Part shown: positions 2,697 through 44,004 of the stretch, piece after piece | Layout of the letters: every line of letters begins with the position of its first letter | Position numbering within the stretch: position 1 is the first letter of the stretch | From: Candidatus Nealsonbacteria bacterium | GTDB taxonomy: Bacteria; Patescibacteriota; Minisyncoccia; Minisyncoccales; JAGMDC01 | Length of the DNA: 64,000 bases | Direction of reading: 5' to 3' | Assembly: GCA_030612885.1 (NCBI GenBank) | Contig: JAUWMZ010000001.1 | Location: 68,032 to 132,031 of the forward strand | Position numbers and translations under genes: made by a program | The notes under the pieces: generated by a model | What the model saw: the letters and a program-made list of their open reading frames with translations, nothing else | Told to the model about the DNA's origin: nothing | Database searches by the model: none

Positions 2697-4016
2697 TTAT
2701 TCAACTTCTTTCCAGCTTATTACCTTCCAACCACCGGACGGTCCGCTGGAAAAACTAACGTCTTGAAGTCCAACTTCGTATTCAACTTCTGCGTTATTAT
2801 CAAGATAAATTTTGTACCCAACAACTTCTCTAACTTTCATATTATTACGCAACCGAATTAAACCGTCAGAAGTATAAAAAACTGCTCCTTCAGCATTGTT
2901 TTCTACATCAATAGCAGGGCTTGAAATATCTAAAGAAGAATTTGTAGAAAGAAGCATTATATAACTTCCTATTTCTCCGGACCCTTGTAGAATGACGCCT
3001 GGGCTAATATTAATTTTTCCATCAGATATAATTACACCGCTTGTTGAACCATAACCAGAATCTAGCCTTATAGTAGCATTATTTCCAATAATAATATCCT
3101 GTGTTACATAAATTGTTCCGGTTATTATTAAGGTGGCATTATTACTAACAGTTAAATTTCCTGTAATTTGTTGAGGTCCAAGGGATTTAGTTTCACCCAC
3201 GCCTACTGTGTAGTCCCCAACATAAATACAGCTTGGATTATTATTGCAATTTGCCTCGTCCTTCCAGTTGTTAATTTGTTCATCAGAAATGGGCATAGGA
3301 AGAGGATCAATTTGATTAGGTAAAGTTTTCAGTCCTCCGCCAGCAACACAATTTCCCGGAGTTCCTTCATCTCCCCAAGGAGGACCAGAAACATAAGTCA
3401 AGTCTCCTGCAATATTACAATCTTTACAGGTGTGAACTGTAGCATTTCCTCCAACCCATAACCATTCAATTTTTTTTCCATTATTAGCCACTATAATATC
3501 ATCAGTTATATTAAAACCTGCTCCAAATGCTTCACTTATATTAACAACATTCCCGTTTGAAAACACATTACCCTTAATCTTACTATTGGATTCCATTTCC
3601 ATCCCTCCATCACCAACTTGAGCTCCATAATGAAAAGAGATGCCTGTAGCGGCAATAGTTGCCACTACGCTAACTTTTCTAATGTATCCATCAATATTTC
3701 CCTCTGAAATTATCTCCCTGGTTCCGGCAATAATATCTCCTACATATCGAGTGGCTGTTCCTTCTCCTATATTCAAACTGCTGGGATTAGAAACAGGCAG
3801 TTCTATGTTTGTATTATTTCTTAGAAGTATATCTTCTATTCCTCCTTCTGCTATATAATAATTTTTTAAAGATTTGACAAAATTCTTAGTGAGCTGCCTT
3901 TCATTTAAAACTAAAGAGGAAAAAGCTAAAGTAATAATCAAAGAAAAAGACATTATAATAACAACAGTTGTAATTAAGGCAAATCCTTTTCCATTATTTT
4001 TAGATAAATTCTTCAT
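2697..4016 (-). CDS. large PilX-like minor pilin / pilus tip-associated protein
   Basis: N-terminus KGFALITTVVIIMSFSLIIT (PilX-N-like hydrophobic segment), followed by a Gly/Asn-rich, probably beta-rich domain. Confidence 0.5.
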   Translation of the reverse strand: MKNLSKNNGKGFALITTVVIIMSFSLIITLAFSSLVLNERQLTKNFVKSLKNYYIAEGGIEDILLRNNTNIELPVSNPSSLNIGEGTATRYVGDIIAGTREIISEGNIDGYIRKVSVVATIAATGISFHYGAQVGDGGMEMESNSKIKGNVFSNGNVVNISEAFGAGFNITDDIIVANNGKKIEWLWVGGNATVHTCKDCNIAGDLTYVSGPPWGDEGTPGNCVAGGGLKTLPNQIDPLPMPISDEQINNWKDEANCNNNPSCIYVGDYTVGVGETKSLGPQQITGNLTVSNNATLIITGTIYVTQDIIIGNNATIRLDSGYGSTSGVIISDGKINISPGVILQGSGEIGSYIMLLSTNSSLDISSPAIDVENNAEGAVFYTSDGLIRLRNNMKVREVVGYKIYLDNNAEVEYEVGLQDVSFSSGPSGGWKVISWKEVE

Positions 4017-4020
4017 TTTT

Positions 4021-4527
4021 TTAATATTTTCTTAGAGACCCGCTTGAGACCAAATTTATTTCTCTTTGATATTCTTCTTTTGAAGAACAATAACGAGCCG
4101 TAATCTCTATCCTTACTGAAGAACAATCCGTTAAAGAAGGCAGATAAGTAAAATTCAAATTAGTAATTTCTATTCTTTCTGATGTTAAAGATTGAGAATC
4201 TTGGCCTTCTCTTTTCAAATATAATCTTCCATTATCCAGATAAAAATCAACATAAGTTTTATTTTCTCCTTCAGGAGGATTTAAATTAGTTTCTAAACTA
4301 ATCTGGTTTGTAGTGGAGCTGGTTGGACTATAAACAGTTGAAGCATATTTGATTTCTGAAAGCATGCTATTTAAAGCAAAATGAGTATTGTTTAAAATCT
4401 CCTTATCAAACCGAGAGATATTATAAAACTCGGCCAGCCTTAATGCTCCGGTTAAAAGAGCTCCACTGATTATGGAAAAAACTGCTAAATAAACTAAAAT
4501 TTCAATAAGGGTAAAACTATTGTTCAT
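4021..4527 (-). CDS. prepilin-type N-terminal cleavage/methylation domain pseudopilin
   Basis: The N-terminus is MNNSFTLIEILVYLAVFSI, containing the FTLIE motif. Confidence 0.7.
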   Translation of the reverse strand: MNNSFTLIEILVYLAVFSIISGALLTGALRLAEFYNISRFDKEILNNTHFALNSMLSEIKYASTVYSPTSSTTNQISLETNLNPPEGENKTYVDFYLDNGRLYLKREGQDSQSLTSERIEITNLNFTYLPSLTDCSSVRIEITARYCSSKEEYQREINLVSSGSLRKY

Positions 4528-4532
4528 TTTGT

Positions 4533-5048
4533 CTAATAATTAAAATTAGTAAGATAAGAAATTAGGGTTACATCTTTATCTTTTCCGTTTTCCTGCCAAG
4601 TTACTATTGTAATAATTTTTCTAGAATTTTCGTCATCATTTACAGAATTGTAAACATCTTCAATGTCTCCGGTATCAGGATCTCGAGAGAGTTTTTTAAA
4701 AACAACTTTTCGATTGAAACGGTTGTTAATAGGGCCGGGATCAATAGAGGTTAATTCCCAGCTATTTCCTGAAATAATCGGATAATAAGTGTCATTAAGA
4801 TCAATATCAAACTCTCCAATCCCAGTTTTCCCATCATCTGCATCTATCCAAGCCACCTGGTCTCTGATATTACGAACTGCCTCTATCCCTTCTTCTGCTA
4901 AATAAGCAGCCTTCATTTCGTTCTTATTTTCTTTTGAAATCTTCAAAGACAAAACAGCAATTTCATAAAAACTTGTGCTTACTATTGTTAAAACAAAGAT
5001 GGCGATTATTAATTCTGCCGCACTAAAACCTTTTTGATGAAGAATCAT
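4533..5048 (-). CDS. pseudopilin (prepilin-type N-terminus)
   Basis: KGFSAAELIIAIFVLTIV motif. I prefer the internal ATG at 5048 over the tracked start 5105 because it removes the overlap with the upstream gene, whose stop is at 5050-5052. Confidence 0.6.
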   Translation of the reverse strand: MILHQKGFSAAELIIAIFVLTIVSTSFYEIAVLSLKISKENKNEMKAAYLAEEGIEAVRNIRDQVAWIDADDGKTGIGEFDIDLNDTYYPIISGNSWELTSIDPGPINNRFNRKVVFKKLSRDPDTGDIEDVYNSVNDDENSRKIITIVTWQENGKDKDVTLISYLTNFNY

Positions 5049-5049
5049 A

Positions 5050-5922
5050 TTATTGTAGTTCAGGTTCGCTTGTAAAAATTGATGTTCCCTTAAGTACCTG
5101 TCCATCTGGATTATAAATAATTAAACTGCCGGCCTCGCCGCTAATAGAAATAGTCAGGCTTTTATTATTATATCTTAAATCCCGATGAATAGAGAAAAGT
5201 GTATCAGGATTATTTAATCTGTGAGTGTGAATATGAAGTATCTGATCATCAGCGCCTACTGTTATTATCCCCTCCCAATTAAACTGGTCGCCTTCTATAA
5301 AATTACTAATTTTAATATCTTCAGTTGTTGCAGGATCGTCAAAAGTGAAAGTTATTATTTCATTAACAGTATCTATATTCCGGCTGTAAGTAAAATGTAT
5401 ATGCCGAGAATCAGTGAGCCGAGTATTTAAAGGTAAAAAATCCTCGCCTTTAATAGCTGCTTTACCAGAAGATTCTATTTTTATAATCCGGTATTTTTCA
5501 GAATTATTTTTAAGTTGAATTTTCACAGTGCCAAATTGGGAAGTATTGCCGGTAAGCCGAGCAAAAACTGCTTCACTGCCTCCTCCATTTAGGTCTAATC
5601 CTGAATCAAGGACAGGAATTTCAAGCCGGGAAGAAAGGCTATATATTTTATTATCAGAAGCAACGGGACTATAACTGCTCCCTTTAAATAAAACGCATTC
5701 CCCTTGTTCAAAATGAACTCCATAATTAGAAGCTCCCTCTGAAGCTAAAGTTTTTGATTGAGCTAAGCTCAAAGCATTTAAAATCATTTGAGCATTAGTA
5801 TCAAGGTCGCTTTGCCCGCGAAAAGAAAAATAAGAACCTACTGCAATTGAACATAAAATAACAATAATAGCTATTGCGACCAAAACCTCAATTAAAGTAA
5901 AAGATTCAAATTTTTTATTCAT
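5050..5922 (-). CDS. prepilin-type N-terminal domain pilin-like protein (290 aa)
   Basis: The N-terminus is MNKKFESFTLIEVLVAIAIIVIL, a canonical class III signal. Confidence 0.7.
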   Translation of the reverse strand: MNKKFESFTLIEVLVAIAIIVILCSIAVGSYFSFRGQSDLDTNAQMILNALSLAQSKTLASEGASNYGVHFEQGECVLFKGSSYSPVASDNKIYSLSSRLEIPVLDSGLDLNGGGSEAVFARLTGNTSQFGTVKIQLKNNSEKYRIIKIESSGKAAIKGEDFLPLNTRLTDSRHIHFTYSRNIDTVNEIITFTFDDPATTEDIKISNFIEGDQFNWEGIITVGADDQILHIHTHRLNNPDTLFSIHRDLRYNNKSLTISISGEAGSLIIYNPDGQVLKGTSIFTSEPELQ

Positions 5923-5944
5923 TGATAATTTATCATTAATAATT

Positions 5945-7159
5945 TTACATTTCTCCCATCATTGAATACATTGGCTGAATCATAGATACGGCGAAAAAGC
6001 CAACTGCTCCTCCAATAATGAGCATTAGAACTGGCTCTATAATGGAAGATAGGTTTTTGGTGGCATTAGAAACCTCTTCTTCATAAAAGTCAGCCATTTT
6101 CTCCAAAATATCTGATGTCTCACCGGTTTCTTCTCCTACCTTTATCATCTGAACAATGGTTAAGGGATAGATATCCGCATAAGACATTAAAGCATCAGAT
6201 AGTTTTTCTCCTTTTTCAACTTTTTTAGCTGCTTCCAATAATGCCTTTTTGTAATAAAAATTAGTTAAAGATTTAGAAGTAATCTCCAGTCCTCGAACAA
6301 TAGGGATACCAGCAGAAATTAAAGAACTTAGGGTTCTGGACGTAAAAGCAGTATTTGTCTTTTGAATTAAAGAAGAAATAACCGGGATTTTTAACAAAAG
6401 AGCGTCAAGATTCTTTTTTCCTTTTTTGCTTTTTAATGCTGTCCGAAAAAGAAAACCAGAAACAAGCAAAATCAAAATAAACAGATACCATTTTTCAACC
6501 ATAAAAGTGCCGAGAAAAATCACAAATCTGGTGGTAGCCGGCAATTCAATCTCTAAATCTGCAAAAACAGCTGCTAAGCTCGGCACAACAATAACAAGCA
6601 TTAACATTCCAATTCCAATCATAGCGCAAAGAATTACTGCTGGATAAATCATTGCTCCTATGATTTTTGATTTCAGCTCCACTTCCCTTTCTATCTGCCG
6701 AGTCAATGACTTTAAAACATCCTCTAATGTGCCTGATTCTTCTCCTGCCCTTACCATATTAGAAAAAAGTTCAGGAAAGATATTGGGAAATTTTTCCAAT
6801 GATTCAGAAAAACTCTTTCCTTTTATTATCTCTGTTTTTATTTTCAGCAAAGCATCTTTGAATTTTTTGTTTTTAGAAACAGAAGCCAAAGTATCCAAAG
6901 CCCCGGGAAGAGACATACCAGAGCTAATCATAATGCGCAAATTTCTGGTAAAAAACAATTTTTCTTTTGCGCTCACTCCTAAAAAAGGAAGAGAAATCTC
7001 CATCTTTTTTTTCTTTGTTTTTTCTCTTGTTTCTGCTTTAATTAAAATATAACCCTGGCCGCGTAAAATCCGAGCCAATTCGTATTCATCTTTGGCTTCG
7101 CTTTTTCCGGAATGCACCTCTCCCTTTAATGATTTAGCTGTATAAAAATAATTAGGCAT
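5945..7159 (-). CDS. pilC: PilC/GspF-family type IV pilus platform protein
   Basis: 404 aa polytopic protein with a duplicated GspF-like architecture and motifs such as MVRAGEESG and MIKVGEETG. Confidence 0.9.
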   Translation of the reverse strand: MPNYFYTAKSLKGEVHSGKSEAKDEYELARILRGQGYILIKAETREKTKKKKMEISLPFLGVSAKEKLFFTRNLRIMISSGMSLPGALDTLASVSKNKKFKDALLKIKTEIIKGKSFSESLEKFPNIFPELFSNMVRAGEESGTLEDVLKSLTRQIEREVELKSKIIGAMIYPAVILCAMIGIGMLMLVIVVPSLAAVFADLEIELPATTRFVIFLGTFMVEKWYLFILILLVSGFLFRTALKSKKGKKNLDALLLKIPVISSLIQKTNTAFTSRTLSSLISAGIPIVRGLEITSKSLTNFYYKKALLEAAKKVEKGEKLSDALMSYADIYPLTIVQMIKVGEETGETSDILEKMADFYEEEVSNATKNLSSIIEPVLMLIIGGAVGFFAVSMIQPMYSMMGEM

Positions 7160-14014: not shown

Positions 14015-15184
14015 TTAAATCTCAAATCCATAAACAACATTTTTTAGCAAACTATAATTGAGCGAAACTACTCTGAAAAAATCTATGTTTATTGCTTTGC
14101 TAATCCTTGCTAATTTATTCACATCTGTCCGGCTGGGATTGGTTTTAACTTCAAAAGATTTTTTTTTGTCAAGAATAAAATCAATTTCCGCGCCTGTCTT
14201 TCTCTGATAATAATTAACTTCACCATTCAACCTTAAACCTTGAAAAACATTCTGTTCAAACAGCGATCCCTTACTGATACTGGTTATATTACCAACTAAT
14301 CCTGAATCACAAAAATAAACTTTGGGTATTTTTCTAATTTCCACATCCCGGCTTTTACTAAAAGGCCTTGCTAATTTTATAAAGTAAGTGGCTTCTAAAA
14401 ATGACAAATAATCATAAATAGTCGCCCTTGAAACATTTAATTCTTGGGATATTTTTTTAATATCCAGCTTATTGCCTGTCCGCTCCGCTAACAGTAAAAT
14501 CAAATCCCTTACTTTGTCTGTTTTTCTAAAATCGCTTAATTGTTTTATTTCTAATTGAAAATAAGAAGTAAAAATATCATTCAGTGCCTGTTTTTTTTCT
14601 TTTATTGATTTTTTTTCTATCACCTGAGGAAATCCGCCAAACTTTAAAAACTCATCATAATAGCGAAAAAGGGTTTTAAAAATCGCCTCGTTAATTTGAG
14701 AATGTTTTGATGGAATTTTTAGATTTATTTGTTTTAATTGTAAAAATTCATGAAAGTCAAAAGGAAATAATTCAAAAACATATTTTCTGCCAGCTAATGA
14801 TTCGGAAAATAAATTTTTTAGATAAAAGCTTGCTGAACCGGTAAGAAAAAATTTGACTTTGTAATGATCTATAAAATATTTTACTATCTGCGGTATATTT
14901 TTAATGAGCTGAATTTCGTCCAAAAAGACAAAAGCTTTTTTACTAAAATCTATACCTAATGTTTCTAAAGAAAATTTAATTTGTTCAAAATTTTCCTCGT
15001 TAAAATATTTTTGATTCAAGGGATTTTCTAAATCTAAAAAAAGTTTGTTCTTATGGTCGATTTTATCATAAATAAAACTAAGAAGCGTGGTTTTGCCTGT
15101 TCTTCTCATTCCTGTAATAATAATAGCTTCTTTGGAATCTAAATATGGTTCTATTTTATTGTATAATTTTCTTTTTACTATCAT
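14015..15184 (-). CDS. AAA+ ATPase with DUF4143-like C-terminal domain
   Basis: Walker A GMRRTGKTT, Walker B VFLDEIQ, and a C-terminal VYFCDSGL segment typical of the AAA_14/DUF4143 family. Confidence 0.8.
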   Translation of the reverse strand: MIVKRKLYNKIEPYLDSKEAIIITGMRRTGKTTLLSFIYDKIDHKNKLFLDLENPLNQKYFNEENFEQIKFSLETLGIDFSKKAFVFLDEIQLIKNIPQIVKYFIDHYKVKFFLTGSASFYLKNLFSESLAGRKYVFELFPFDFHEFLQLKQINLKIPSKHSQINEAIFKTLFRYYDEFLKFGGFPQVIEKKSIKEKKQALNDIFTSYFQLEIKQLSDFRKTDKVRDLILLLAERTGNKLDIKKISQELNVSRATIYDYLSFLEATYFIKLARPFSKSRDVEIRKIPKVYFCDSGLVGNITSISKGSLFEQNVFQGLRLNGEVNYYQRKTGAEIDFILDKKKSFEVKTNPSRTDVNKLARISKAINIDFFRVVSLNYSLLKNVVYGFEI

Positions 15185-15250: not shown

Positions 15251-16345
15251 TTACTCAGTTGGTTCCTCGGTTGGTTCTTCAGGCGGTTCTGGCTCTGGCT
15301 CTGGCTCAATATTACAAACGCTGTCATACCAATAACCTCCAGCTTCAGTACATTCTGATTCATCAACACACAAATCAAGGTTTTCTGAATCGCAGACCGG
15401 CCCTGGCTCAACGCCGTCTTCAGGAGGCGTGGTTGTATCGGTTGGAGGAATATCTGGCGGAATAACCGGCTCTGGTTCTGATTCAAACAATGGCTCGCTG
15501 TTGCAAACATTGTTATACCAATAACCTCCAGCTTCAGTACATTCTGAATCATTTGTACACAAATTAAGGTTCTCTAAATCGCAAACTGGCTCTGGTTCTG
15601 GCTCTGGCACAAATGCGATTTCCGGCGCGGGTTCAACGGGTGTGGCCTCTAATTCTGGCTCTGGTTCAGGTTCAGGCGATTGATAATCCATCATTAATAA
15701 TTCATCGTTTATGTCTGACGGTTGAGAAACTTGGGCAATCTGGACAAATTCATCAACTGCTTGCTCAACAACTAATTCATAGCCAGGCAAGACCTTGTTT
15801 TTTATATCTAAAACCAAACTAACTAAACCAGTGTATTCAGTTGTTTCAACAATTTCAGTTTTGCCTTTTTCTATTTCAGCCGTCTGAACCTCTTTCAAAT
15901 AAGCTAATTCATAATCTGCTATCTCACCAAGTTCTTCTGTTAAGTATAAACCTAAATCTTTGTCACCAAGAGCGGCTTTAGAAACAGTCATTGTGGCGCT
16001 TTTAGCTAACGGCTGCCAGACATTATCTTTGATGCCCAGAGTATTGAACGAGTAGTCAATATAGTAATTCTCTTCATCTTTTGAAACAGCATTAATGGTC
16101 ATCGCTAAATCAAAGGTATCTAAATCAGCAGCTAAAAGCTGGGTGTTGTCTATACCTGTTTGGGTAATAATCTCCTCGCCAATAATAGCATCGTGTAAAT
16201 CTTCTGAAGCAAAGATGGCTCCGCTGAAAACAAATACTAAAATTAAGCCAATAGTAAAGGCGTTGTGGTATTTAATGAAGTCAATTACTCTATTCATTAT
16301 GGCGCTTTCCTTTATTAAGTTGTTTTGTTTTGTTGTTTTTTTCAT
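15251..16345 (-). CDS. secreted/anchored protein with PE-rich linkers and a duplicated 4-Cys module
   Basis: N-terminal hydrophobic anchor. Two near-identical modules: CDLENLNLCTNDSECTEAGGYWYNNVCN and CDSENLDLCVDESECTEAGGYWYDSVCN, separated by (EP)n linkers. Confidence 0.6.
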   Translation of the reverse strand: MKKTTKQNNLIKESAIMNRVIDFIKYHNAFTIGLILVFVFSGAIFASEDLHDAIIGEEIITQTGIDNTQLLAADLDTFDLAMTINAVSKDEENYYIDYSFNTLGIKDNVWQPLAKSATMTVSKAALGDKDLGLYLTEELGEIADYELAYLKEVQTAEIEKGKTEIVETTEYTGLVSLVLDIKNKVLPGYELVVEQAVDEFVQIAQVSQPSDINDELLMMDYQSPEPEPEPELEATPVEPAPEIAFVPEPEPEPVCDLENLNLCTNDSECTEAGGYWYNNVCNSEPLFESEPEPVIPPDIPPTDTTTPPEDGVEPGPVCDSENLDLCVDESECTEAGGYWYDSVCNIEPEPEPEPPEEPTEEPTE

Positions 16346-16349
16346 ATTT

Positions 16350-16377
16350 TTGTAAGTGAAATTATTTATGGTATAAT
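16350..16377 (+). promoter_or_regulatory. sigma70-type promoter with extended -10 (TTGTAA-N16-TGgTATAAT)
   Basis: The -10 box lies at 16372-16377 and is preceded by TG. The predicted start, near G16385, is the first base of a 12-bp helix. Confidence 0.5.
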
Positions 16378-16384
16378 TTTAATT

Positions 16385-16593
16385 GTGGTGGGGATGGCGT
16401 AGCACGAGGCCAGGATTATCACCCATGGCTTTCGGGGTGCAAATCCCCGCATCTCCACCACTTAAAAGTTATCCACAGTTATTCTATTGACAAAATATTT
16501 TGATTTGCTATACTTAAATTGGATGATAATCCTGGATCTCGTACTACGTTAAGGTCAGTGAAAAGTTCTGCGAAAGCAGAGCTTTTTGTTTTT
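16385..16593 (+). ncRNA. candidate structured RNA locus: tRNA-like acceptor/T-arm module plus a complementary downstream segment and terminator
   Basis: GTGGTGGGGATG (16385-16396) pairs with CATCTCCACCAC (16450-16461). T-arm-like CGGGG-TGCAAAT-CCCCG lies at 16433-16449, followed by CATCTCC-ACCA. Segment 16396-16425 is complementary to 16520-16550. Terminator hairpin with a GAAA loop and U-tract at 16561-16593. Confidence 0.4.
16487..16514 (+). promoter_or_regulatory. internal sigma70-type promoter (TTGACA-N16-TATACT) between the inverted repeats
   Basis: Consensus -35 and near-consensus -10. The predicted start, near 16521, coincides with the first base of the right inverted repeat. Confidence 0.5.
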
Positions 16594-16650
16594 CTCAATC
16601 TGAATTTTCTTTCTCCCGCCATCTTTTTGTGAAAACTGGTGTTAATAAAT

Positions 16651-16699
16651 CTCTGTTGATGTCTCTGTTGATGTCTCTGTTGATGTCTGACATCAACAG
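16651..16699. repeat. three tandem 12-mers (CTCTGTTGATGT) plus one inverted copy forming a 9-bp hairpin
   Basis: Direct copies at 16651-16662, 16663-16674 and 16675-16686. CTGTTGATG (16677-16685) and CATCAACAG (16691-16699) are inverted. Confidence 0.9.
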
Positions 16700-16710
16700 C
16701 TACTCCTCTA

Positions 16711-16959
16711 TTAAATTATATCTAATTTATAGCCCAGATTGTAAAGAGAAATGCCATTTAGGATGGCTTTCGGCGAATAGGTTTTGTGAAGCATTGGCGA
16801 GGAACAAAAATATCTCTTACAGGTTTTACAATAATATTTTTGGACCCGACCTTCTCTTTTAAATCTTTGGCCCGCCTTTACTACATTTTTCCCTTCGCAA
16901 AAAACACATTTTTTCTCTTCGTAGTTTAAAAGTTTTTTAGTTTTATTGTTAAAATCCAT
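16711..16959 (-). pseudogene. truncated IS1/IS1595-type zinc-ribbon transposase N-terminal fragment
   Basis: 82 aa with CVFCEGKNVVKAGQRFKREGRVQKYYCKTCKRYF (CxxC...CxxC). It stops just as the expected HTH (LYNLGYKL...) begins, abutting the 12-mer repeat array. Confidence 0.5.
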
Positions 16960-17269: not shown

Positions 17270-17578
17270 TCAAAGTTCTTTTATTTTTTCTCTGTGTTCT
17301 GGATTGCTTCTGATTAAAAGCCTTAACCAGTGTCTTGTTTCTTTTATTTCTTTTTTGCAAATACCTATTTTATGAATAAAATCTTTTTTACTTTCTGCTT
17401 CAGTAGCTTCGCAATAATTAGCGCCAGTTGAACCAGCCGAAGCAACTAACTGACTAATTATCCTCTTGTTAACCGCGTCTTCTTTTATCGTTCTCACAAA
17501 ATCAATCACTTTCTCAGCAAATCGGGCAGTTCTTTCTTCTAAATCATAATTAAAATTTTTGTTTGATAATTGGGTCAT
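17270..17578 (-). CDS. four-helix-bundle protein (23S rRNA intervening-sequence protein family)
   Basis: 102 aa. The pattern RFAEKVIDF...QLVASAGSTGANYCEA...DFIHKIGICKKEIKETRHWLRL matches the family signature. Confidence 0.8.
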   Translation of the reverse strand: MTQLSNKNFNYDLEERTARFAEKVIDFVRTIKEDAVNKRIISQLVASAGSTGANYCEATEAESKKDFIHKIGICKKEIKETRHWLRLLIRSNPEHREKIKEL

Positions 17579-28759: not shown

Positions 28760-29974
28760 CTAAATAATTTTAACAAACTTTCTTTTGCCTGCCTGGATTA
28801 TCGTTCCTTTTTTTACTTTAATATCTTTCTGCCAGTCATTCTGAATTTCATTATCAATTTTCACTCCTTTTTGCAAAACCAATCTTTTAGCTTCTGATTT
28901 TGAGGAAGCTATTTTTGTTTTTACCAGTAAATCTAAAATATTATAAACCCCTGGTTTTAATTTGAAACCGGGTATTTTAGAAGGCAGTTTCTTTTCTTTA
29001 AAAATTCTATTAAATTCTTTTTCTGCTTTTTCTGCCACACTTTTATTGTGATACATAGTCACAATTTCTTTCGCTAAAATAGATTTTGCCTTTTTAGGGT
29101 TAAGTTTTTTGGATTTTATATCTTGCGCAATTTGTTTGATTTTGTTTAGGGGAATTTCTGTCCAATGGGTAAAACAAGAAGCAATAACTTCATCAGGCAA
29201 AGCCATTATTCTACCGTACATATTATTTGGTTTTTCGTCCAAGCTAATATAGTTTCCTTCGCTTTTTGACATTAACATTTTTTTTGTTTTTGGGTCTTCT
29301 AAGATTTCTTTTGCTATAACAAATTTTTGTTTCTTTTTGTAAATTTTCATCAAATCTCTTCCTACCAACATATTGAAAATTTGGTCACTCCCCCCTAATT
29401 CAATATCAGTGTCTAACTTTACGGAATCGTATCCTTGCAATAACGGGTATAAAAATTCATGGAAAAAAATTTCTTTTCCCATTTTCTTTCTTTTTCTGAA
29501 TATGTCCCTTGCCATTATCTTTTGGATGGTTATTTTACTCATTAAATCCATTATTTCTTCCAGTTTCATCTTTCCAAACCATTGACTATTGAAAGCAATC
29601 TTTACTGAATTTTTTTTAGAATTAAAATCTAAAATTTTCGCTGCCTGCCTTTGATAATTTTTGTAATTTTCCAAAATTTGTTTTTTAGAAAGTTGTTTGC
29701 GCACGGAAAGCTTTCCTGTTGGGTCTCCTATTCTCGCTGTGAAATCCCCAAATAATAAAGTAACTTGATGCCCTAATTTTTGAAACCGTTTTAGGATTAA
29801 TAAATTAGTTCCGTGGTCAAGATGTAAATTAGGCGCAGTAGGGTCAATGCCGAAATAAATTTTTAATTGTTTGTTGGATTTCAAAATTTCTTCCATTTTT
29901 CCTTTGGAAGGATAAATTTTTTTAATCGCTCTTGTTAAAACCTCTTCAATTTTTTTTGGATTGGTATCTATCAT
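28760..29974 (-). CDS. tyrS: tyrosyl-tRNA synthetase
   Basis: Class I motifs (PTAPNLHLDHG, KMLMSKSEGN as the KMSKS-like motif) and a C-terminal S4 domain (EAKRLVLQKGVKIDNE). Confidence 0.9.
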   Translation of the reverse strand: MIDTNPKKIEEVLTRAIKKIYPSKGKMEEILKSNKQLKIYFGIDPTAPNLHLDHGTNLLILKRFQKLGHQVTLLFGDFTARIGDPTGKLSVRKQLSKKQILENYKNYQRQAAKILDFNSKKNSVKIAFNSQWFGKMKLEEIMDLMSKITIQKIMARDIFRKRKKMGKEIFFHEFLYPLLQGYDSVKLDTDIELGGSDQIFNMLVGRDLMKIYKKKQKFVIAKEILEDPKTKKMLMSKSEGNYISLDEKPNNMYGRIMALPDEVIASCFTHWTEIPLNKIKQIAQDIKSKKLNPKKAKSILAKEIVTMYHNKSVAEKAEKEFNRIFKEKKLPSKIPGFKLKPGVYNILDLLVKTKIASSKSEAKRLVLQKGVKIDNEIQNDWQKDIKVKKGTIIQAGKRKFVKII

Positions 29975-30647
29975 AATTTTGAGGGACAGGGGAGGGACAG
30001 TCCCTCCCCTGTCCCTCTACGATATTTAGATGACGTGTCTTAAGAAAATATCCAGAAACGAGAAGGTCTTTGGCTAATTTCCGATATTCTTGTCTGGCTT
30101 TTTTAATATTATTAGAGACAAGAGATAAAATAAATTTATCCTGGGTAATTCCATCCTCTCTTAATCCAAGATGAACAGGATAACTATTCCAGGGGTCTCT
30201 CTCGGCTTCCTCTAAAAGTTTTGTCAAAATGCTTTTTGAAATATTTTGGTTATTAATACGCTGAAGTTTTTCCAGAACTTTATTTAGATTAATATAAATG
30301 GAAGTGGGTAAAAGAGCATTTTCTCCAAGTTGTTCTGCTTTAAATCTATCTTGGAACAAATGCCCTACCCGAGAATACTTTTTATTTATATGGAGACCAA
30401 AACTAGTATGGAGACTACCAATAAATTTACTAGGAGGAACTTCAGAAGTTTGTTCAATTAAATAATGAACATGGTTAGGAAGTAAATTATAGGCATGAAT
30501 GTTCACTGGATATTTTTTAAGAAATTCTTTAATTTTATAAAGATAAAATATAAAATCTTCTTTCCTGTGAAAGATATTTTCTTTAGCAACTCCTCTACTA
30601 AAAATATGCCAAAAACTTCCTTTATAAAATTTTCGTAGTTGTCTCAT
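29946..30647 (-). CDS. Y1 HUH transposase-like protein (IS200/RAYT family)
   Basis: FWHIFSRG, HUH motif LLPNHVHYLI, GHLFQDRFKAE and a Tyr-region (SIYINLNKV). I prefer the ATG at 30647 over the tracked 30725. The C-terminal residues are read through the REP palindrome and overlap the tyrS start. Confidence 0.75.
   Translation of the reverse strand: MRQLRKFYKGSFWHIFSRGVAKENIFHRKEDFIFYLYKIKEFLKKYPVNIHAYNLLPNHVHYLIEQTSEVPPSKFIGSLHTSFGLHINKKYSRVGHLFQDRFKAEQLGENALLPTSIYINLNKVLEKLQRINNQNISKSILTKLLEEAERDPWNSYPVHLGLREDGITQDKFILSLVSNNIKKARQEYRKLAKDLLVSGYFLKTRHLNIVEGQGRDCPSPVPQNYDRYQSKKN
29982..30016. repeat. REP-like GC-rich palindrome copy 2
   Basis: Same 35-nt core as 86-120. Lies 8 nt upstream of the tyrS start codon and inside the 3' end of the transposase-like ORF. 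Confidence 0.85.
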
Positions 30648-30726
30648 ATATAGAAAAAGATTTATGAACTGTCCTTTTCTTATCCCTTCTTTATTTATAA
30701 TAGCAAAATTATTAGAATTTGCCAAA

Positions 30727-32823: not shown

Positions 32824-33993
32824 TTAGGTTGATTTAATCGGCATTATAACATAAAGATAGGTTGCGTCTCCTACTGGTTTTAAAACCGATGGTCCTTCTT
32901 CTCCGTTCATTTCAAAAATCACTTCAGAACTTTTTATATTAGCCAGTCCTTCGATTAAAAACCTCCAATTAAAAGAAACTTTTATTTCTTTGCCAGTGAT
33001 TTTGGAAAAAAGAGAAGATTTATTTTCTCCCAGTTCCGAACTTTGAGAGAAAATTTCTACCTCTTTTTTGGAAGGCACGGCTTTTAATCTGATTTCATTT
33101 GTCTTGCCGCTGAAAAGAGAAGCGGTTTTTATTTTATTCAGAAATTCGTTTCTATTTAAAATAAGCTGGGTTTCGTATTTTTTAGGGATAATTTCTTGAT
33201 AATCAGGATATTCTCCTTCAATTAAGCGAGACATAAGCTGAATTTGGGGTTTAGAAATTTCTGGAAACAATATCTCAAACAAAACTTGATTAGAGGAGAA
33301 ATAAATCCTGATTTTTTTGGAATCTATTTTTTTCGTCCCCTCACCCTCTTTTTCAGAAAAGATATTAAGAAGCTCCCTGCTCGCTTTTAATGGAAGAATA
33401 AAAGAATATCCTTTTTCTGAAATCAAATCACTATTGAGTTTATTTTCAAAATATAATGTTTTTTCTGCTAATCTAAAACTGTCAGTGGCGGTTATTTTTA
33501 ATTGCTCTTTCTGAAAATTAAAATATATTCCGGATAATTCTACTCTTGTCTGGTTAGGGGTGGTAAAGTTAATTACCTGGGAAATTCCTTCGTAGAAAGG
33601 AGCTGTTTTTATTTCTAAATAGTCATTAGTTTCAATTTTAGGAATAATAGGAAATTCTTCAGGGTCTTGCCCTTTAATTTGGGCTTTTTGATTTTTACAA
33701 TCAATATGGAGAACATTATTTTTAACTTCTAAATTTATTTTTTCTTCAGGTAGAAAATTAATAAAATCAGATAAAAGTTTGGCTGGTATGGCTATTTTTC
33801 CTGGTTTTTCTATTTTAGATAAAGCCCAGTATTTTATAGCTATTTCAAGGTCGGTAGTGATAAGATTTAAAAGATTATTATCTGTAGAAATTAAAACATT
33901 ATTTAAAATAGGAAGGGTAAGATTTTTGGTTGTTATTTTTTCTGTAATGTCTAATCCTTTTTTTAAATTTTCTTTTAGAATTATTATTTTCAT
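32824..33993 (-). CDS. dnaN: DNA polymerase III beta sliding clamp
   Basis: 389 aa with a three-domain clamp pattern (MKIIILKENLKKGL..., LKPVGD near the C-terminus), immediately downstream of dnaA. Confidence 0.9.
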   Translation of the reverse strand: MKIIILKENLKKGLDITEKITTKNLTLPILNNVLISTDNNLLNLITTDLEIAIKYWALSKIEKPGKIAIPAKLLSDFINFLPEEKINLEVKNNVLHIDCKNQKAQIKGQDPEEFPIIPKIETNDYLEIKTAPFYEGISQVINFTTPNQTRVELSGIYFNFQKEQLKITATDSFRLAEKTLYFENKLNSDLISEKGYSFILPLKASRELLNIFSEKEGEGTKKIDSKKIRIYFSSNQVLFEILFPEISKPQIQLMSRLIEGEYPDYQEIIPKKYETQLILNRNEFLNKIKTASLFSGKTNEIRLKAVPSKKEVEIFSQSSELGENKSSLFSKITGKEIKVSFNWRFLIEGLANIKSSEVIFEMNGEEGPSVLKPVGDATYLYVIMPIKST

Positions 33994-34227
33994 ATTTTTA
34001 TTTTAATTAGTAATAGTATATTACTATTACTAATTATTAATTAAATAAAATTTGTTGTTATTAGAGCTGTGTATTTCTTTTATTTTTACTTAATTTACTT
34101 ATAAATTTAGATGTGAATAAAATGTTGATAAAGAATAGCCTTTATTGTTTTGTTTTTTAACGCTTATTTTAATTCCTTTATTTCCATTTCTATTCCCTTG
34201 TTTTTCCTCTGTTTTTCCCCTGTATTT

Positions 34228-35586
34228 TTAAACAGAGTATATCCTTTGCTTTATTAAATTAACCTCTTCAAAAAGCCTTTCATTTTCTTTGATTTCTCTG
34301 GATATTTTTTCAAAAGCATGGATAGCTGTGGTATGGTCTTTTCCGCCGAACTTCCGGCCGATAAAAGGGAAAGAAGAATTTAAAGATTCTCTTAAAATAT
34401 ACATTGCTATCTGTCGCGGGAAGACAATTTCTTTTTTTCTTGAAGCGGCAATAAGGTCTTTTTCTTTCAAATCATAGAATTCAGCCACTGTTTGAATAAT
34501 TTTTTTAGGACTAACCATTCTTGTCGGAGCGGAAATTATGTTTTTTAAAAGTGTCTTAGCTATTTGGCAATCGGGAATTTGATTATTTAGTTTTTGATAA
34601 GCGATTAATCTGTTCAAGGCGCCCTCTAATTCCCTAACATTTTCTTTAATATTGGAACTAATATATTCTAAAACATCATCAGAAAGATTTATTCCTTTTT
34701 CCTGGGATTTAACTTTTAAAATAGCCATTCTTGTTTCATAGTCAGGAAAACCAATATCAGCAATCATTCCTCCTTCAAATCGGGAGCGCAACCGTTCCTC
34801 TAAGCTGGAGATGGCTTTTGGGGGACGGTCTGAAGAAAGGATTATCTGCCTGTTTCTTTCATATAAGGTATTGAAAATATGGAAAAATTCCTCTTGGGTT
34901 TTTTCTTTGCCGGCTAAAAACTGAATATCATCAATAATTAAGACATCAATTTTTCGGTGGTTATTTTTAAACTCCTCAATGCTGTGATTTTTAATTGAAG
35001 AAACAACACCAGAAATAAATTTTTCACAGGTAATATACCTTGTTTTCTTGTCTGGAAAATTTTTAATTGTTTTGTTGCCAATAGCTTGGATGAGATGAGT
35101 TTTGCCTAAACCTACTCCGCCGTAAACAAATAAAGGATTATAAATTGAGCCGGGATTTTTAGAGATAGCCCAAGCCGCAGCATGTGGAAGTTCGTTGTAG
35201 GGTCCCACTACAAAGTTTTCAAACGAATAACGAGGGTTTAGATTAGTGACTTTATCGGCTTTAAATTCTTCAAATTGGAGCTGTTCTTCGTCTGTGTAGT
35301 GGTTTGTAATTCGGGAGCGCTCTTTTTTCACTTCCAGTCCGGTCCTGGGTACTTCATATTTTATTTCTTTAACATTTTCATTTAAGCTGTGGGCAATTTT
35401 TAAAATGGTTTTATTGTATTTATTTTCTAACCATTCTTTAGAGAAATGATTAGGGACTGAAATCACGATTTTTCCTTCTTGTTTTAAAAGGATTTTAGTG
35501 TTTTTAAACCAGGTCGCAAAATTGGCCGGAGAGGTATTGAATTGAATTTGGGCAAGTATTGCTTGCCAGAGTTCTTCCTTGGTCAT
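34228..35586 (-). CDS. dnaA: chromosomal replication initiator DnaA
   Basis: GGVGLGKTHL Walker A, LIIDDIQF, and a C-terminal DNA-binding helix (GGKDHTTAIHA). The start is taken at the ATG at 35586; the tracked start 35619 reads through a repeat tract. Confidence 0.95.
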   Translation of the reverse strand: MTKEELWQAILAQIQFNTSPANFATWFKNTKILLKQEGKIVISVPNHFSKEWLENKYNKTILKIAHSLNENVKEIKYEVPRTGLEVKKERSRITNHYTDEEQLQFEEFKADKVTNLNPRYSFENFVVGPYNELPHAAAWAISKNPGSIYNPLFVYGGVGLGKTHLIQAIGNKTIKNFPDKKTRYITCEKFISGVVSSIKNHSIEEFKNNHRKIDVLIIDDIQFLAGKEKTQEEFFHIFNTLYERNRQIILSSDRPPKAISSLEERLRSRFEGGMIADIGFPDYETRMAILKVKSQEKGINLSDDVLEYISSNIKENVRELEGALNRLIAYQKLNNQIPDCQIAKTLLKNIISAPTRMVSPKKIIQTVAEFYDLKEKDLIAASRKKEIVFPRQIAMYILRESLNSSFPFIGRKFGGKDHTTAIHAFEKISREIKENERLFEEVNLIKQRIYSV

Positions 35587-36021: not shown

Positions 36022-36023
36022 TT

Positions 36024-36568: not shown

Positions 36569-36571
36569 AAA

Positions 36572-39320: not shown

Positions 39321-39327
39321 TTAGTTC

Positions 39328-41776: not shown

Positions 41777-41779
41777 TTT

Positions 41780-42187: not shown

Positions 42188-42198
42188 ACGAAAGTTTT

Positions 42199-43974: not shown

Positions 43975-44004
43975 ATTTTGAGATAATTGTTCAATACTCT
44001 AACT

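What the first reader, a model, noticed from the sequence alone, without database searches (positions are those of the whole stretch)
16350..16593. tRNA-like acceptor/T-arm RNA interleaved with 30-bp inverted repeats that bracket a consensus promoter
From an extended -10 promoter, the predicted transcript starts with a 12-bp helix (16385-16396 with 16450-16461). This helix encloses a T-arm-like hairpin and ends ...CAUCUCC-ACCA, like a tRNA or tmRNA 3' end. There is no D arm or anticodon arm.

Segment 16396-16425 is complementary to 16520-16550. The about 95 bp between them carries TTGACA-N16-TATACT, whose start site falls on the first base of the right repeat. A strong terminator follows.

Three readings are possible:
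- Two RNAs forming a repeat/anti-repeat-like duplex.
- An invertible promoter that, when flipped, would drive the Cys-repeat surface protein gene at 15251-16345.
- A decayed tRNA/att remnant.
Basis: seen in the sequence. Interest (0 to 1): 0.7.

Follow-up and report, generated by a model that had tools for sequence, protein, structure and literature searches.

The report
tmRNA-like mini-RNA with antisense partner
This intergenic region encodes a 71-nt RNA that copies only the tRNA-like head of the ribosome-rescue RNA tmRNA, next to a second small RNA that can base-pair with it and unfold it; the pair is conserved in several candidate-phyla (CPR) bacteria and may be an RNA-only switch on ribosome rescue.

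Summary
Positions 16390-16460 (+) fold as a tmRNA tRNA-like domain (TLD) without any coding part. It has a 7-bp acceptor stem with G3:U70, one hairpin, a T arm and ACCA. Its last 28 nt are identical to bona fide tmRNAs.

A consensus promoter at 16487-16514 starts a second RNA of about 75 nt (about 16520-16594). Its 5' end is antisense to nt 7-36 of the first RNA, and it ends in a terminator.

The same layout (promoter, TLD RNA, promoter, antisense RNA, terminator) occurs in nine other loci (eight distinct): Saccharibacteria, Doudnabacteria and Uhrbacteria MAGs plus metagenome contigs.
- The sequences differ but the pairing is kept: 12 of 15 core pairs are compensatory.
- There are 28 G-U pairs against 4 C-A mismatches.
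- The orientation is always the same.

This supports an RNA-RNA duplex. It argues against an invertible promoter or a decayed tRNA.

Best reading: an antisense-controlled tmRNA-TLD mimic, possibly an RNA-only toxin-antitoxin-like module acting on trans-translation. That function is inferred, not shown.

CDS-less tmRNA genes are on record, including three in Patescibacteria. I found no description of the antisense partner.

The parts
16350..16377 (+). Promoter P1: weak -35 (TTGTAA) and extended -10 (TGgTATAAT, 16369-16377). Predicted start at about 16384-16385.
   Evidence: 10/12 plus TG. A TGnTATAAT-like box lies 7-9 nt before the (G)UGGU leader in 8 of 10 family loci.
16385..16389 (+). 5' leader GUGGU. 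It is complementary to ACCAC (16457-16461) and extends the acceptor stem to 12 bp in the precursor. Presumed to be removed by RNase P.
   Evidence: (I7). (G)UGGU precedes G1 in 8 of 10 loci. The window encodes rnpA at 36024-36362.
16390..16460 (+). RNA1: a 71-nt, tmRNA-type tRNA-like domain with no coding region. Acceptor 5' strand 16390-96; D-loop analogue 16397-16405; hairpin 16406-16432 (loop AUUAUCAC); T arm 16433-16449; acceptor 3' strand 16450-56; ACCA 16457-60.
   Evidence: Fold z = -4.6. Covariation: 94.7% of cells paired, 7 of 9 hairpin pairs compensatory. Own covariance model: 93 bits here, a single copy in the window, 80-94 bits in most CPR relatives (66.5 for L130). The last 28 nt are identical to standard tmRNAs L139 and L143.
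16396..16425 (+). Target segment in RNA1: the last acceptor nucleotide, the D-loop analogue, the 5' strand of the hairpin, its loop and the first 3'-strand nucleotides. It pairs with RNA2.
   Evidence: Loop nucleotides that are unpaired within RNA1 covary with RNA2.
16469..16477 (+). Perfect DnaA-box sequence TTATCCACA in the spacer. Conserved only in the closest relatives (L157, L142). Role unknown.
16487..16514 (+). Promoter P2: TTGACA, 16 nt, TGcTATACT. It drives RNA2.
   Evidence: 11/12 plus TG. TTGAC(A/T) followed after 16-17 nt by a -10 box is present in all 10 loci, 4-27 nt after the CCA, always on the RNA1 strand.
16520..16594 (+). RNA2: an antisense small RNA of about 75 nt. The 5' antisense segment is 16520-16551 (core seed 16520-16535, a 1-nt bulge, then the second helix 16537-16550). 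It is followed by a short linker, a terminator hairpin 16560-16587 and a U tract to about 16594.
   Evidence: Predicted gain on pairing with RNA1 is -17.9 kcal/mol over the folded monomers; non-cognate pairs give mostly 0 to -10.

Best explanation
This is a self-contained two-RNA gene module.

RNA1 (16390-16460) is a tmRNA reduced to its tRNA-like domain. It is transcribed from P1 with a short leader. It folds into an acceptor stem (G3:U70, A73, CCA), a stub hairpin and a T arm. It is presumably matured by RNase P and 3' trimming. By analogy with tmRNA it should then be recognised by AlaRS, SmpB and EF-Tu.

RNA2 (about 16520-16594) is made from its own stronger promoter, and also sits on any read-through transcript from P1. 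Its single-stranded 5' end pairs first with the loop and 5' strand of the RNA1 hairpin. The pairing then extends through the D-loop analogue into the acceptor stem, giving a 25-31-bp duplex. That duplex cannot coexist with the tRNA-like fold.

RNA2 is therefore a cognate antisense 'off switch' or antidote for RNA1, acting by sequestration and probably by RNase III cleavage.

The most likely biological role: RNA1 is a decoy that competes with full tmRNA for SmpB or the ribosome, so the pair behaves like an RNA-only (type I/VIII-like) toxin-antitoxin or regulatory module acting on trans-translation.

Shown: both folds, the homology to the tmRNA TLD, the conserved promoters and terminator, the covarying intermolecular pairing, and its strand and RNA specificity.

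Inferred: processing, alanylation, SmpB binding, inhibition of trans-translation, and relative RNA stabilities.
For: RNA1 as a tmRNA TLD
- The acceptor, T arm and ACCA 3' end is identical over 28 nt to two genes that ARAGORN and RF00023 call standard tmRNAs (L139 at 147 bits, L143 at 113 bits).
- The 5' end GGGGAUG-GCGUAG-CA-CGAG parallels their GGGGAUG-ACUUAG-UUU-CGAC.
- The T-loop variant UGCAAAU also occurs in more than 120 permuted phage tmRNAs.

Conservation
- A genome scan that did not ask for the partner RNA returned 6 CPR loci. All 6 have the P2 promoter, the antisense segment and the terminator. Four more loci came from the metagenome scan.

Intermolecular pairing
- In the 15-bp core, 94.7% of cells are paired and 12 of 15 pairs have changes on both sides. 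0 of 500 shuffles reach this, and slid registers give 21-44% paired.
- Over the full duplexes there are 254 Watson-Crick pairs, 28 G-U pairs and only 4 C-A/A-C mismatches. This points to selection on + strand RNA.
- Cognate ddG is -12.6 to -30 kcal/mol. The two copies in one Uhrbacteria MAG do not cross-pair (-0.9 and -4.6).
- In the predicted heterodimer the acceptor stem is opened.

No protein partner
- There is no conserved neighbouring gene and no conserved small ORF.

Literature
- A TLD-only molecule strongly inhibits tmRNA, perhaps by titrating SmpB (PMC4131195, citing Mao 2009).
- CDS-less standard-order tmRNA genes are recorded in phage DS6A and in 3 Patescibacteria genomes (PMC11915505).

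Context
- Several loci lie in accessory surroundings: a PDC-S01 candidate defence ATPase and an IS1-type fragment here, a HepT/MNT pair, Fic with a transposase, and ORF6N elsewhere.
Against: - There are no expression, charging, SmpB-binding or toxicity data.
- I could not test whether these genomes also carry a full tmRNA or smpB. None is present in this 64-kb window.
- The junction before the T arm lacks the GGAC that precedes the T stem in the tmRNAs read here (L139, L002, L011; L143 has GGAA).
- The conserved leader pairs with ACCA and could keep the 3' end closed if RNase P does not cut.
- CDS-less tmRNAs in mitochondria are thought to aid rescue rather than poison it (PMC11915505).
- Some neighbours are plain housekeeping genes: KsgA, IleRS, MreB.
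- The family census is limited to sequences with one exact T-loop and acceptor pattern, so its true distribution is unknown.
Confidence: 0.5

Rival explanations
1. RNA1 is a working minimal ribosome-rescue RNA. Like the CDS-less tmRNAs of mitochondria, it would act with SmpB and perhaps replace full tmRNA in these genomes. RNA2 would merely tune its level.
For: The tmRNA database paper lists a Patescibacteria group (9FT-COMBO-53-11) whose only recognised tmRNA gene lacks a tag frame. It argues that CDS-less organellar tmRNAs stay useful because they co-occur with SmpB (PMC11915505). All TLD identity elements are intact and conserved.
Against: About 78% of Patescibacteria genomes, a figure close to that of many other MAG-dominated phyla in the table, have a standard tmRNA. 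The strict pattern scan found the module in only a handful of MAGs. Two divergent, non-cross-pairing copies in one MAG and the lack of synteny fit an accessory element better than a core gene. Without a stop codon the RNA cannot release ribosomes by itself.
Confidence: 0.2
2. RNA2 is the effector small RNA with other targets, and RNA1 is its tRNA-shaped sponge or stabiliser. Alternatively, the duplex exists to be cut by RNase III into defined products.
For: The pairing is symmetrical evidence and does not say which RNA controls which. RNA2 has the build of a trans-acting sRNA: a 5' seed, a small hairpin and a terminator. A 25-31-bp duplex is a plausible RNase III substrate (inference).
Against: The RNA2 seed varies freely between loci and tracks only RNA1. 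The strictly conserved parts are the tmRNA-like acceptor and T arm of RNA1, which a mere sponge would not need.
Confidence: 0.12
3. There is one precursor transcript from P1. The 30-bp helix is an intramolecular processing stem, as around rRNA, and the P2 'promoter' is incidental.
For: No terminator separates RNA1 from RNA2, so P1 transcripts should contain both. The 216-nt transcript folds with the long helix at -72.6 kcal/mol, z = -4.9.
Against: TTGACA, 16-17 nt and a -10 box are conserved in all 10 loci, at variable distance from the CCA but at a fixed 1-7 nt before the antisense segment. The helix would destroy the conserved tRNA-like fold rather than flank it.
Confidence: 0.08
4. RNA1 and RNA2 form a new kind of two-piece tmRNA, with RNA2 as the message piece.
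For: Two-piece tmRNAs held together by pairing exist (PMC11915505). Stop codons occur just after the antisense segment in 7 of 9 loci (from the sequences).
Against: RNA2 has no conserved reading frame. L125 and L127 have no stop codon before the terminator. RNA2 pairs with the D-loop analogue and the acceptor stem, which must stay free in a working TLD. A 28-bp helix closed by a 7-nt return linker cannot coexist with the acceptor/T stack (geometry, inference). The strand topology is opposite to tmRNA helix 2.
Confidence: 0.03
5. An invertible promoter (inverton): the inverted repeats are recombination sites, and flipping 16426-16519 would drive the surface-protein gene 15251-16345.
For: Inverted repeats flank a strong promoter next to a surface-protein gene.
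Against: - Same orientation in 10 loci from different phyla and in 4 assemblies of this population.
- The upstream gene is not conserved.
- The nearest recombinases are serine recombinases 38-42 kb away in a T4SS-like region.
- Arm mismatches are G-U 28 against C-A 4.
- Inversion would break the conserved tRNA-like RNA.
Confidence: 0.02
6. A decayed tRNA or tmRNA fragment left at an integration (att) site.
For: tmRNA 3' ends are common att sites. Many IMG/VR hits to the T-arm string lie at contig ends.
Against: Both acceptor strands are present and covary. The RNA has its own promoter and scores 80-94 bits across most CPR lineages (66.5 for L130). No integrase is adjacent.
Confidence: 0.01

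Closest known systems
CDS-less, standard-order tmRNA genes ('Standard, no CDS'): mycobacteriophage DS6A TLD-only RNA, 3 Patescibacteria entries (9FT-COMBO-53-11 sp001772805), about 65-bp plastid genes of Mallomonadaceae (PMC11915505; PMC4131195)
   Same: An RNA of about 65-72 nt made only of the tmRNA acceptor stem (G3:U70), the D-loop analogue, a stub helix and the T arm-CCA, in normal 5'-to-3' order. Solo relatives turned up here in a phage contig (L040, 55.7 bits) and in Acidobacteriota, Verrucomicrobia and gammaproteobacterial MAGs (L126, L129, L122).
   Different: Those reports, as far as the text I read goes, describe a single RNA. Here, and in nine related loci (six from CPR MAGs, three from unassigned metagenome contigs), the gene is coupled to a dedicated promoter-driven antisense RNA with covarying complementarity. 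The solo relatives have no such partner within 400 nt. I could not check whether the three Patescibacteria database entries are the same family.
Standard tmRNA (SsrA, RF00023) and two-piece permuted tmRNA (RF04321, RF01849-51)
   Same: Identical T arm, acceptor and CCA. A related 5' end (GGGGAUG..UAG..CGA). Two RNAs held together by base pairing, as in permuted forms.
   Different: There is no resume codon, tag frame or pseudoknots. Rfam scores are far below threshold (15.4 against 47 bits) and ARAGORN is silent. The gene order is not permuted. The second RNA pairs against the TLD itself instead of completing it.
Antisense-RNA control and RNA-toxin systems: hok/sok-type (type I) and type VIII toxin-antitoxin pairs such as SdsR/RyeA and CreT/CreA (PMC10767807, PMC9458426, PMC10097628)
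   Same: A structured, presumably stable RNA sits next to a small RNA with a single-stranded 5' seed. The antidote-like promoter is the stronger one. The pairs are cognate and non-cross-reacting, can be multi-copy, lack synteny, and often lie near other toxin-antitoxin or mobile genes.
   Different: No toxic peptide is encoded. Both RNAs are on the same strand as an inverted repeat, not overlapping antisense genes. No Cascade or CRISPR is involved. The putative toxin would be a tmRNA mimic, which has not been described for any toxin-antitoxin type. Toxicity is untested.
tracrRNA:crRNA repeat/anti-repeat duplex
   Same: Two separately transcribed RNAs form a duplex of about 25-30 bp with a bulge, a likely RNase III substrate.
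   Different: No Pfam match to a Cas family among the window proteins scanned; repeat arrays were searched only in 16200-16800, and the related loci were not searched for arrays or cas genes. One partner is tRNA-shaped.
Invertible promoters (fimS, Bacteroides-type invertons)
   Same: Inverted repeats bracket a promoter beside a surface-protein gene.
   Different: Fixed orientation everywhere, no nearby invertase, RNA-type mismatch spectrum, and the arms lie inside conserved RNA genes.

Membership tests
tmRNA (SsrA), full-length | 7-bp acceptor stem with G3:U70, discriminator A and CCA (alanine identity) | tested here: met
   GGGGAUG/CAUCUCC-ACCA. G3:U70 is present in 9 of 9 aligned sequences.
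tmRNA (SsrA), full-length | T arm (5-bp stem, 7-nt loop) abutting the acceptor 3' strand, homologous to tmRNA T arms | tested here: met
   The 28-nt string CGGGGUGCAAAUCCCCGCAUCUCCACCA is identical in the standard tmRNAs L139 and L143.
tmRNA (SsrA), full-length | D-loop analogue without a D stem, with the 5' motif ..UAG..UUCGAC leading into helix 2, and GGAC before the T stem | tested here: inconclusive
   GCGUAG-CA-CGAG resembles ACUUAG-UUU-CGAC. But GGAC is replaced by CUUUC/UCUCC, which pairs with GAGG/GAGA.
tmRNA (SsrA), full-length | mRNA-like domain: a resume codon and tag reading frame ending in a stop codon | tested here: not met
   Only 36 nt lie between the acceptor strand and the T arm. 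ARAGORN finds no tmRNA. No Rfam tmRNA model reaches threshold.
tmRNA (SsrA), full-length | Pseudoknots PK1-PK4 and a long helix 2 | tested here: not met
   Replaced by a 9-bp hairpin with an 8-nt loop.
tmRNA (SsrA), full-length | Alanylation by AlaRS and binding of SmpB and EF-Tu | not testable with these tools
   Needs biochemistry. No smpB gene was found among the window ORFs scanned.
CDS-less 'TLD-only' tmRNA genes (standard order) | About 65-75 nt, 5' and 3' TLD halves in normal order joined by a short stub, closer to tmRNA than to tRNA | tested here: met
   tRNA models do not match.
CDS-less 'TLD-only' tmRNA genes (standard order) | Inhibits or modulates trans-translation (shown for an engineered TLD-only molecule, Mao 2009 via PMC4131195) | not testable with these tools
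   Literature analogy only.
tRNA | Cloverleaf with a D arm and an anticodon arm | tested here: not met
   ARAGORN finds none. There is no RF00005 hit even at E <= 10.
Two-piece (permuted) tmRNA | Permuted gene order: acceptor piece ending in CCA, then a coding piece starting with GGGG and carrying a tag frame | tested here: not met
   The GGGG strand lies upstream of the T arm. The downstream RNA has no GGGG start and no frame. RF04321 scores 15.4 bits against a threshold of 47.
Invertible promoter (inverton) | Both orientations occur, and a site-specific recombinase is nearby | tested here: not met
   One orientation in 10 loci and 4 assemblies. The nearest recombinases are at 54-59 kb. Raw reads were not examined.
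RNA-RNA toxin-antitoxin (type I/VIII-like) | Adjacent genes for a structured RNA and a complementary antidote RNA with its own promoter | tested here: met
RNA-RNA toxin-antitoxin (type I/VIII-like) | Toxicity of one partner, neutralised by the other; stable toxin and labile antitoxin | not testable with these tools
   Inference from the published TLD-only inhibition and from the predicted structures.
RNA-RNA toxin-antitoxin (type I/VIII-like) | Type I only: a small toxic peptide ORF | tested here: not met
   No ORF is conserved beyond what the RNA sequence itself imposes.

The most novel reading that the evidence does not exclude
An RNA-only toxin-antitoxin or abortive-infection-like module whose 'toxin' is a chargeable mimic of the tmRNA tRNA-like domain. 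When the labile antisense RNA2 decays, for example after transcription shut-off, RNA1 refolds, captures SmpB, EF-Tu or stalled ribosomes, and blocks trans-translation. In small CPR genomes trans-translation may be the only ribosome-rescue route. This would be the first toxin-antitoxin system aimed at ribosome rescue, and the first use of a tmRNA fragment as a regulated effector.
Probability: 0.25. Interest if true: 0.85.

Novelty: new variant of a known kind. Interest (0 to 1): 0.72.

Why it matters
tmRNA is treated as one nearly universal housekeeping RNA. Stripped-down TLD-only copies have been noted as curiosities in a phage, in organelles and in three CPR genomes.

Here such a copy is wired to a dedicated, co-evolving antisense RNA in several CPR lineages. 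This implies that the mini-tmRNA has an activity worth switching off.

That gives a concrete, protein-free two-gene system (about 250 bp) in which to test two questions:
- whether cells or their mobile elements deliberately throttle ribosome rescue;
- what CDS-less tmRNAs actually do.

It also flags a class of genes that ARAGORN and Rfam both miss.

Tried and rejected
- ARAGORN and Rfam (gathering and E <= 10) on the window: no tRNA, tmRNA or other family match. The best sub-threshold hits are mascRNA at 21 bits and tmRNA_permuted at 15 bits.
- blastn of the module against 50,697 phage records: no match.
- Viral-contig scan for the T-arm string: more than 120 hits, nearly all permuted phage tmRNAs. 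They were useful only for showing where the T-loop variant occurs. Adding a 5' GGGG gave one solo phage TLD (L040) and two chance hits.
- Metagenome scan with the 28-nt 3' end: 24 loci. 18 were phage-type permuted tmRNAs, 2 were standard tmRNAs and only 4 were family members.
- Conserved neighbouring protein: none. Conserved small ORF (type I toxin): none.
- Retron or DGR link, raised by a reverse transcriptase 385 nt downstream in L157: rejected. That RT sits with a bona fide Avd, so it belongs to a DGR. No RT is adjacent in the window or in seven of the other eight distinct loci; L130 carries only an RT fragment about 1 kb upstream.
- Replication-origin idea, raised by a perfect DnaA box at 16469: the boxes are not clustered here, and the dnaA/dnaN/rnpA/yidC origin region is at 33-37 kb.
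- Antisense partners for the non-CPR solo TLD RNAs: none beyond shuffled controls. The one outlier (L126, -42.6 kcal/mol) is an irregular GC-rich match 365 nt upstream.
- Exact look-up of the surface protein: not on record. Neighbouring proteins gave four assemblies of the same population, all identical across 16350-16604.
- Taxonomy look-ups for the database genus 9FT-COMBO-53-11 failed.
Full report
**1. What is in the sequence**

The 365-bp intergenic region 16346-16710 lies between a Cys-repeat surface-protein gene (15251-16345, minus strand) and an 82-codon IS1-type zinc-ribbon fragment (16711-16959, minus strand). It contains two promoter-like sites on the + strand that are the best two in a 1.2-kb scan:
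- P1: TTGTAA, 16 nt, TGgTATAAT, ending at 16377.
- P2: TTGACA, 16 nt, TGcTATACT, at 16487-16514.

From P1 the transcript would start at about 16385 with GUGGU, followed by GGGGAUG (16390-96). These 12 nt pair with CAUCUCCACCAC (16450-61) (I7). The inner 7 bp form a tRNA-type acceptor stem with a G3:U70 wobble, followed by A-CCA.

Directly 5' of the acceptor 3' strand is a 5-bp, 7-nt-loop T arm, CGGGG-UGCAAAU-CCCCG. Between the acceptor 5' strand and the T arm are only 36 nt:
- 9 unpaired nt (GCGUAGCAC);
- one hairpin (16406-32, loop AUUAUCAC).

The 78-nt RNA folds at -39.6 kcal/mol, z = -4.6. ARAGORN finds no tRNA or tmRNA in the window. Rfam has no match above threshold; the only relevant weak hit is tmRNA_permuted, at 15 bits on the T arm.

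Segment 16396-16425 is complementary to 16520-16550: 26 Watson-Crick pairs, 3 G-U pairs, 2 C-A mismatches and 1 bulge. The duplex energy is -44.5 kcal/mol against -23 for shuffles. The right arm begins 4-5 nt after the P2 -10 box. It is followed by a hairpin (16560-87) and a U tract.

**2. RNA1 is the tRNA-like domain of tmRNA**

The string GGGGTGCAAATCCCC-N4-CTCCACCA occurs exactly in more than 120 IMG/VR contigs. There it is the 3' end of the acceptor piece of permuted tmRNA genes.

The longer 28-nt string from the window occurs in two metagenome contigs. There it ends genes that both ARAGORN and RF00023 call standard tmRNAs, with tags DESKFRMAA and DNSQKTVSAPALAFAA (L139 at 147 bits, L143 at 113 bits).

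Those tmRNAs begin GGGGAUG-ACUUAG-UUU-CGAC-AGGG and GGGGAUG-UAUCAG-CUU-CGAC-GG. The window RNA begins GGGGAUG-GCGUAG-CA-CGAG-GCC.

So both halves of the tmRNA tRNA-like domain (TLD) are present in normal order. Everything between them (helix 2, four pseudoknots and the tag frame) is replaced by a short hairpin.

Such 'standard, no CDS' tmRNA genes are on record:
- 9 sequences in the 2025 tmRNA database, 3 of them from Patescibacteria;
- mycobacteriophage DS6A;
- organellar forms (PMC11915505).

A TLD-only molecule has been reported to inhibit tmRNA strongly, perhaps by titrating SmpB (PMC4131195).

**3. The two-RNA layout is a conserved family**

A scan of one genome per species used the pattern GGGG, 32-52 nt, GGGTGCAAATCCC, N5, CTCCACCA. 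This pattern says nothing about what follows the CCA. It gave 13 loci.

Six of them are from CPR MAGs:
- Saccharibacteria: L121.
- Doudnabacteria: L123.
- Uhrbacteria: L125 and L127.
- Two different copies in one Uhrbacteria MAG: L130 and L131.

All six show the window's architecture. The metagenome scan added L142, L155, L140 (identical to L125) and L157, a close relative of the window at 80% identity over 15754-16609.

Across the ten loci:
- a TGnTATAAT-type box lies 7-9 nt before a (G)UGGU leader in most;
- RNA1 is 69-72 nt;
- TTGAC(A/T), 16-17 nt and a -10 box lie 4-27 nt after the CCA on the same strand;
- the antisense segment starts 1-7 nt after that -10 box;
- RNA2 is 60-71 nt and ends in a hairpin plus U tract.

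A covariance model of RNA1 gave these scores:
- 80-94 bits on most CPR members, and 66.5 on L130;
- one copy in the window;
- 41-68 bits on solo TLD-only genes in Acidobacteriota, Verrucomicrobia and gammaproteobacterial MAGs and a phage contig;
- only 21-31 bits on full or permuted tmRNAs.

The solo genes have no complementary partner within 400 nt beyond shuffled expectation.

**4. Both structures are under selection, and the pairing is between RNAs**

On a 9-sequence alignment the RNA1 fold has 94.7% of cells paired. Seven of the nine hairpin pairs change on both sides. 0 of 500 shuffles reach the covariation score, and slid registers give 42-66% paired.

The 15-bp intermolecular core also has 94.7% paired, with 12 of 15 pairs changing on both sides. 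0 of 500 shuffles reach this, and slid registers give 21-44%. The covarying columns include the eight loop nucleotides that have no partner inside RNA1. The signal therefore cannot be a by-product of the hairpin.

Over the whole duplexes (25-31 bp each) I counted 254 Watson-Crick pairs, 28 G-U/U-G pairs and 4 C-A/A-C mismatches. At the DNA level these two transition classes are equivalent. The roughly 7:1 excess of the RNA-tolerated class means the selected pairing is between + strand transcripts, not between DNA arms. In L142 five of the ten positions opposite the D-loop analogue are G-U.

RNAcofold predicts that the heterodimer is favoured over the two folded monomers by 12.6-30 kcal/mol for cognate pairs. 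For most non-cognate pairs the gain is 0 to -10. The two copies in one MAG do not cross-pair (-0.9 and -4.6, against -19.8 and -12.6 for their cognates).

In the heterodimer the D-loop analogue and the inner acceptor pairs are consumed. In addition, a 28-bp helix whose RNA1 strand must return to the T arm through 7 nt cannot coexist with the acceptor/T stack (geometry, inference). The tRNA-like fold and the duplex are therefore alternatives.

**5. Rejected readings**

*Invertible promoter.*
- The orientation is the same in all ten loci and in four independent assemblies of this very population, which are identical over 16350-16604.
- The left-hand gene is unrelated between loci.
- The nearest recombinases are two serine recombinases at 54-59 kb, beside a T4SS-like block.
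- The mismatch spectrum is of the RNA type.

*Decayed tRNA or att remnant.* All helices are intact and covary across phyla.

*Type I toxin.* There is no conserved ORF.

*Retron.* The reverse transcriptase downstream in L157 belongs to a DGR, as shown by the adjacent Avd (NF033474). No RT is adjacent in the window or in seven of the other eight distinct loci; L130 carries only an RT fragment about 1 kb upstream.

*Two-piece tmRNA.*
- RNA2 has no conserved frame.
- Two loci have no stop codon before the terminator.
- RNA2 pairs against the parts of the TLD that must stay free.

*Processing stem of a single transcript.* This is possible for P1 read-through RNA. It does not explain a consensus promoter kept at a fixed distance from the antisense segment in every locus.

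**6. How it most likely works**

*Shown:* two adjacent same-strand genes, a tmRNA-TLD-like RNA and a promoter-driven antisense RNA, with co-evolving, locus-specific complementarity that excludes the TLD fold.

*Inferred:*
- RNA1 is cut from its 5-nt leader by RNase P. The window encodes rnpA.
- The leader-ACCA pairing may protect the 3' end during trimming.
- Mature RNA1 is charged by AlaRS, since G3:U70 and A73 are the established alanine identity set, and binds SmpB and EF-Tu.
- Lacking a message, RNA1 cannot complete rescue. It would compete with full tmRNA, as the published TLD-only construct does.
- RNA2 is made from the stronger promoter and is also present on every P1 read-through transcript. 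It seeds on the RNA1 hairpin loop with its free 5' end, zips through to the acceptor stem, and inactivates RNA1. The resulting duplex is a plausible RNase III substrate.

The pair would thus behave as an RNA-only toxin-antitoxin-like or regulatory switch on trans-translation.

Supporting but weak context:
- there is no synteny;
- two orthogonal copies occur in one MAG;
- several loci lie beside accessory genes, namely a PDC-S01 candidate defence ATPase and an IS fragment here, a HepT/MNT pair, Fic with a transposase, and ORF6N elsewhere. Other neighbours are housekeeping genes.

The main rival is that RNA1 is a useful minimal rescue RNA, as proposed for mitochondria, with RNA2 as its regulator. 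I could not test whether these genomes also carry a full ssrA.

**7. Novelty and verdict**

RNA1 alone is a new member of a known, rare kind: the CDS-less tmRNA. The dedicated antisense partner, its own promoter and the covarying duplex are, as far as the literature I could search shows, undescribed. No Rfam family or phage record matches.

I rate it a new variant of a known kind, with interest 0.72.

The window itself is an ordinary chromosomal stretch of a low-GC, CPR-like bacterium. It carries type IV pilus genes and the dnaN-dnaA/rnpA-yidC origin region. The taxonomic label is an inference from gene content and from where the RNA's relatives occur.

Noticed in passing
window 59452-59567 (+): LOOT RNA (RF03000, 91.8 bits, E = 3e-16), immediately downstream of a serine recombinase gene (58455-59393). 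A second large serine recombinase is at 54200-55840 (-).
   Followed up: no
window 32824-37781: Chromosomal origin region: dnaN, dnaA (minus strand), then rnpA, yidC and jag/KhpB (plus strand). DnaA-box-like sites are at 34112-34131, 35761 and 36326. The cumulative GC skew bottoms out earlier, at about 20-24 kb, where gene orientation switches.
   Followed up: partly
window 37902-45992: T4SS-like block: two T4SS_pilin-domain proteins, a TraG-like ATPase (42199-43974), PrgI (45172-45588) and a PD-(D/E)XK nuclease. Together with the serine recombinases it may be an integrated conjugative element.
   Followed up: no
window 14015-15184 (-): The AAA_14/DUF4143 ATPase two genes upstream of the RNA module matches the PADLOC candidate defence family PDC-S01 (E = 6e-62).
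   Followed up: partly
window 16650-16699 and 16711-16959: Three tandem copies of TCTCTGTTGATG run into an 11-bp perfect palindrome (CTGTTGATGTC/GACATCAACAG). Next to it is an 82-codon IS1/IS1595-type zinc-ribbon fragment. Homology with the relative L157 stops at 16609, so this looks like the edge of an insertion.
   Followed up: partly
window 16469-16477: A perfect DnaA box (TTATCCACA) lies between RNA1 and the -35 of P2. It is conserved, together with the 8 nt before it, in L157 and in the otherwise divergent L142, but not in the other family members.
   Followed up: partly
L157 (oriented with the RNA on +: about 3512-6764): A diversity-generating retroelement lies directly downstream of the RNA module in the closest relative: a 403-aa RT, Avd (NF033474) and a 564-aa protein with a lectin-like C-terminus. 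The window has only a four-helix-bundle protein (17270-17578) at the corresponding side.
   Followed up: partly
L130 3465-3533 and L131 4655-4725 (same Uhrbacteria MAG, JACPHX01): Two divergent copies of the module occur in one MAG. Their RNA2s are predicted not to cross-pair. The L130 copy has two mismatches in the acceptor stem and may be decaying.
   Followed up: partly
L132 4850-4929 and L133 174-252 (Sinobacteraceae/Nevskia MAGs): A tRNA-Ala-like gene with G3:U70, the tmRNA-type T loop UGCAAAU and an enlarged anticodon loop. ARAGORN calls it tRNA-??? with a 4-nt anticodon (ttat).
   Followed up: no
L040 10683-10753 (IMG/VR contig); also L126, L129, L122: Solo TLD-only tmRNA-like genes without an antisense partner. 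One is on a phage contig next to a tRNA-like gene. The others are in Acidobacteriota, Verrucomicrobia and gammaproteobacterial MAGs.
   Followed up: partly
window 15251-16345 (-): The surface protein has two near-identical Cys-rich repeats (VCD.ENL.LC...SECTEAGGYWY..VCN) separated by Pro/Glu-rich linkers. Contigs of other assemblies of this population break inside this gene.
   Followed up: no
window 29946-30725 (-): An IS200-like Y1 transposase gene overlaps the end of tyrS.
   Followed up: no
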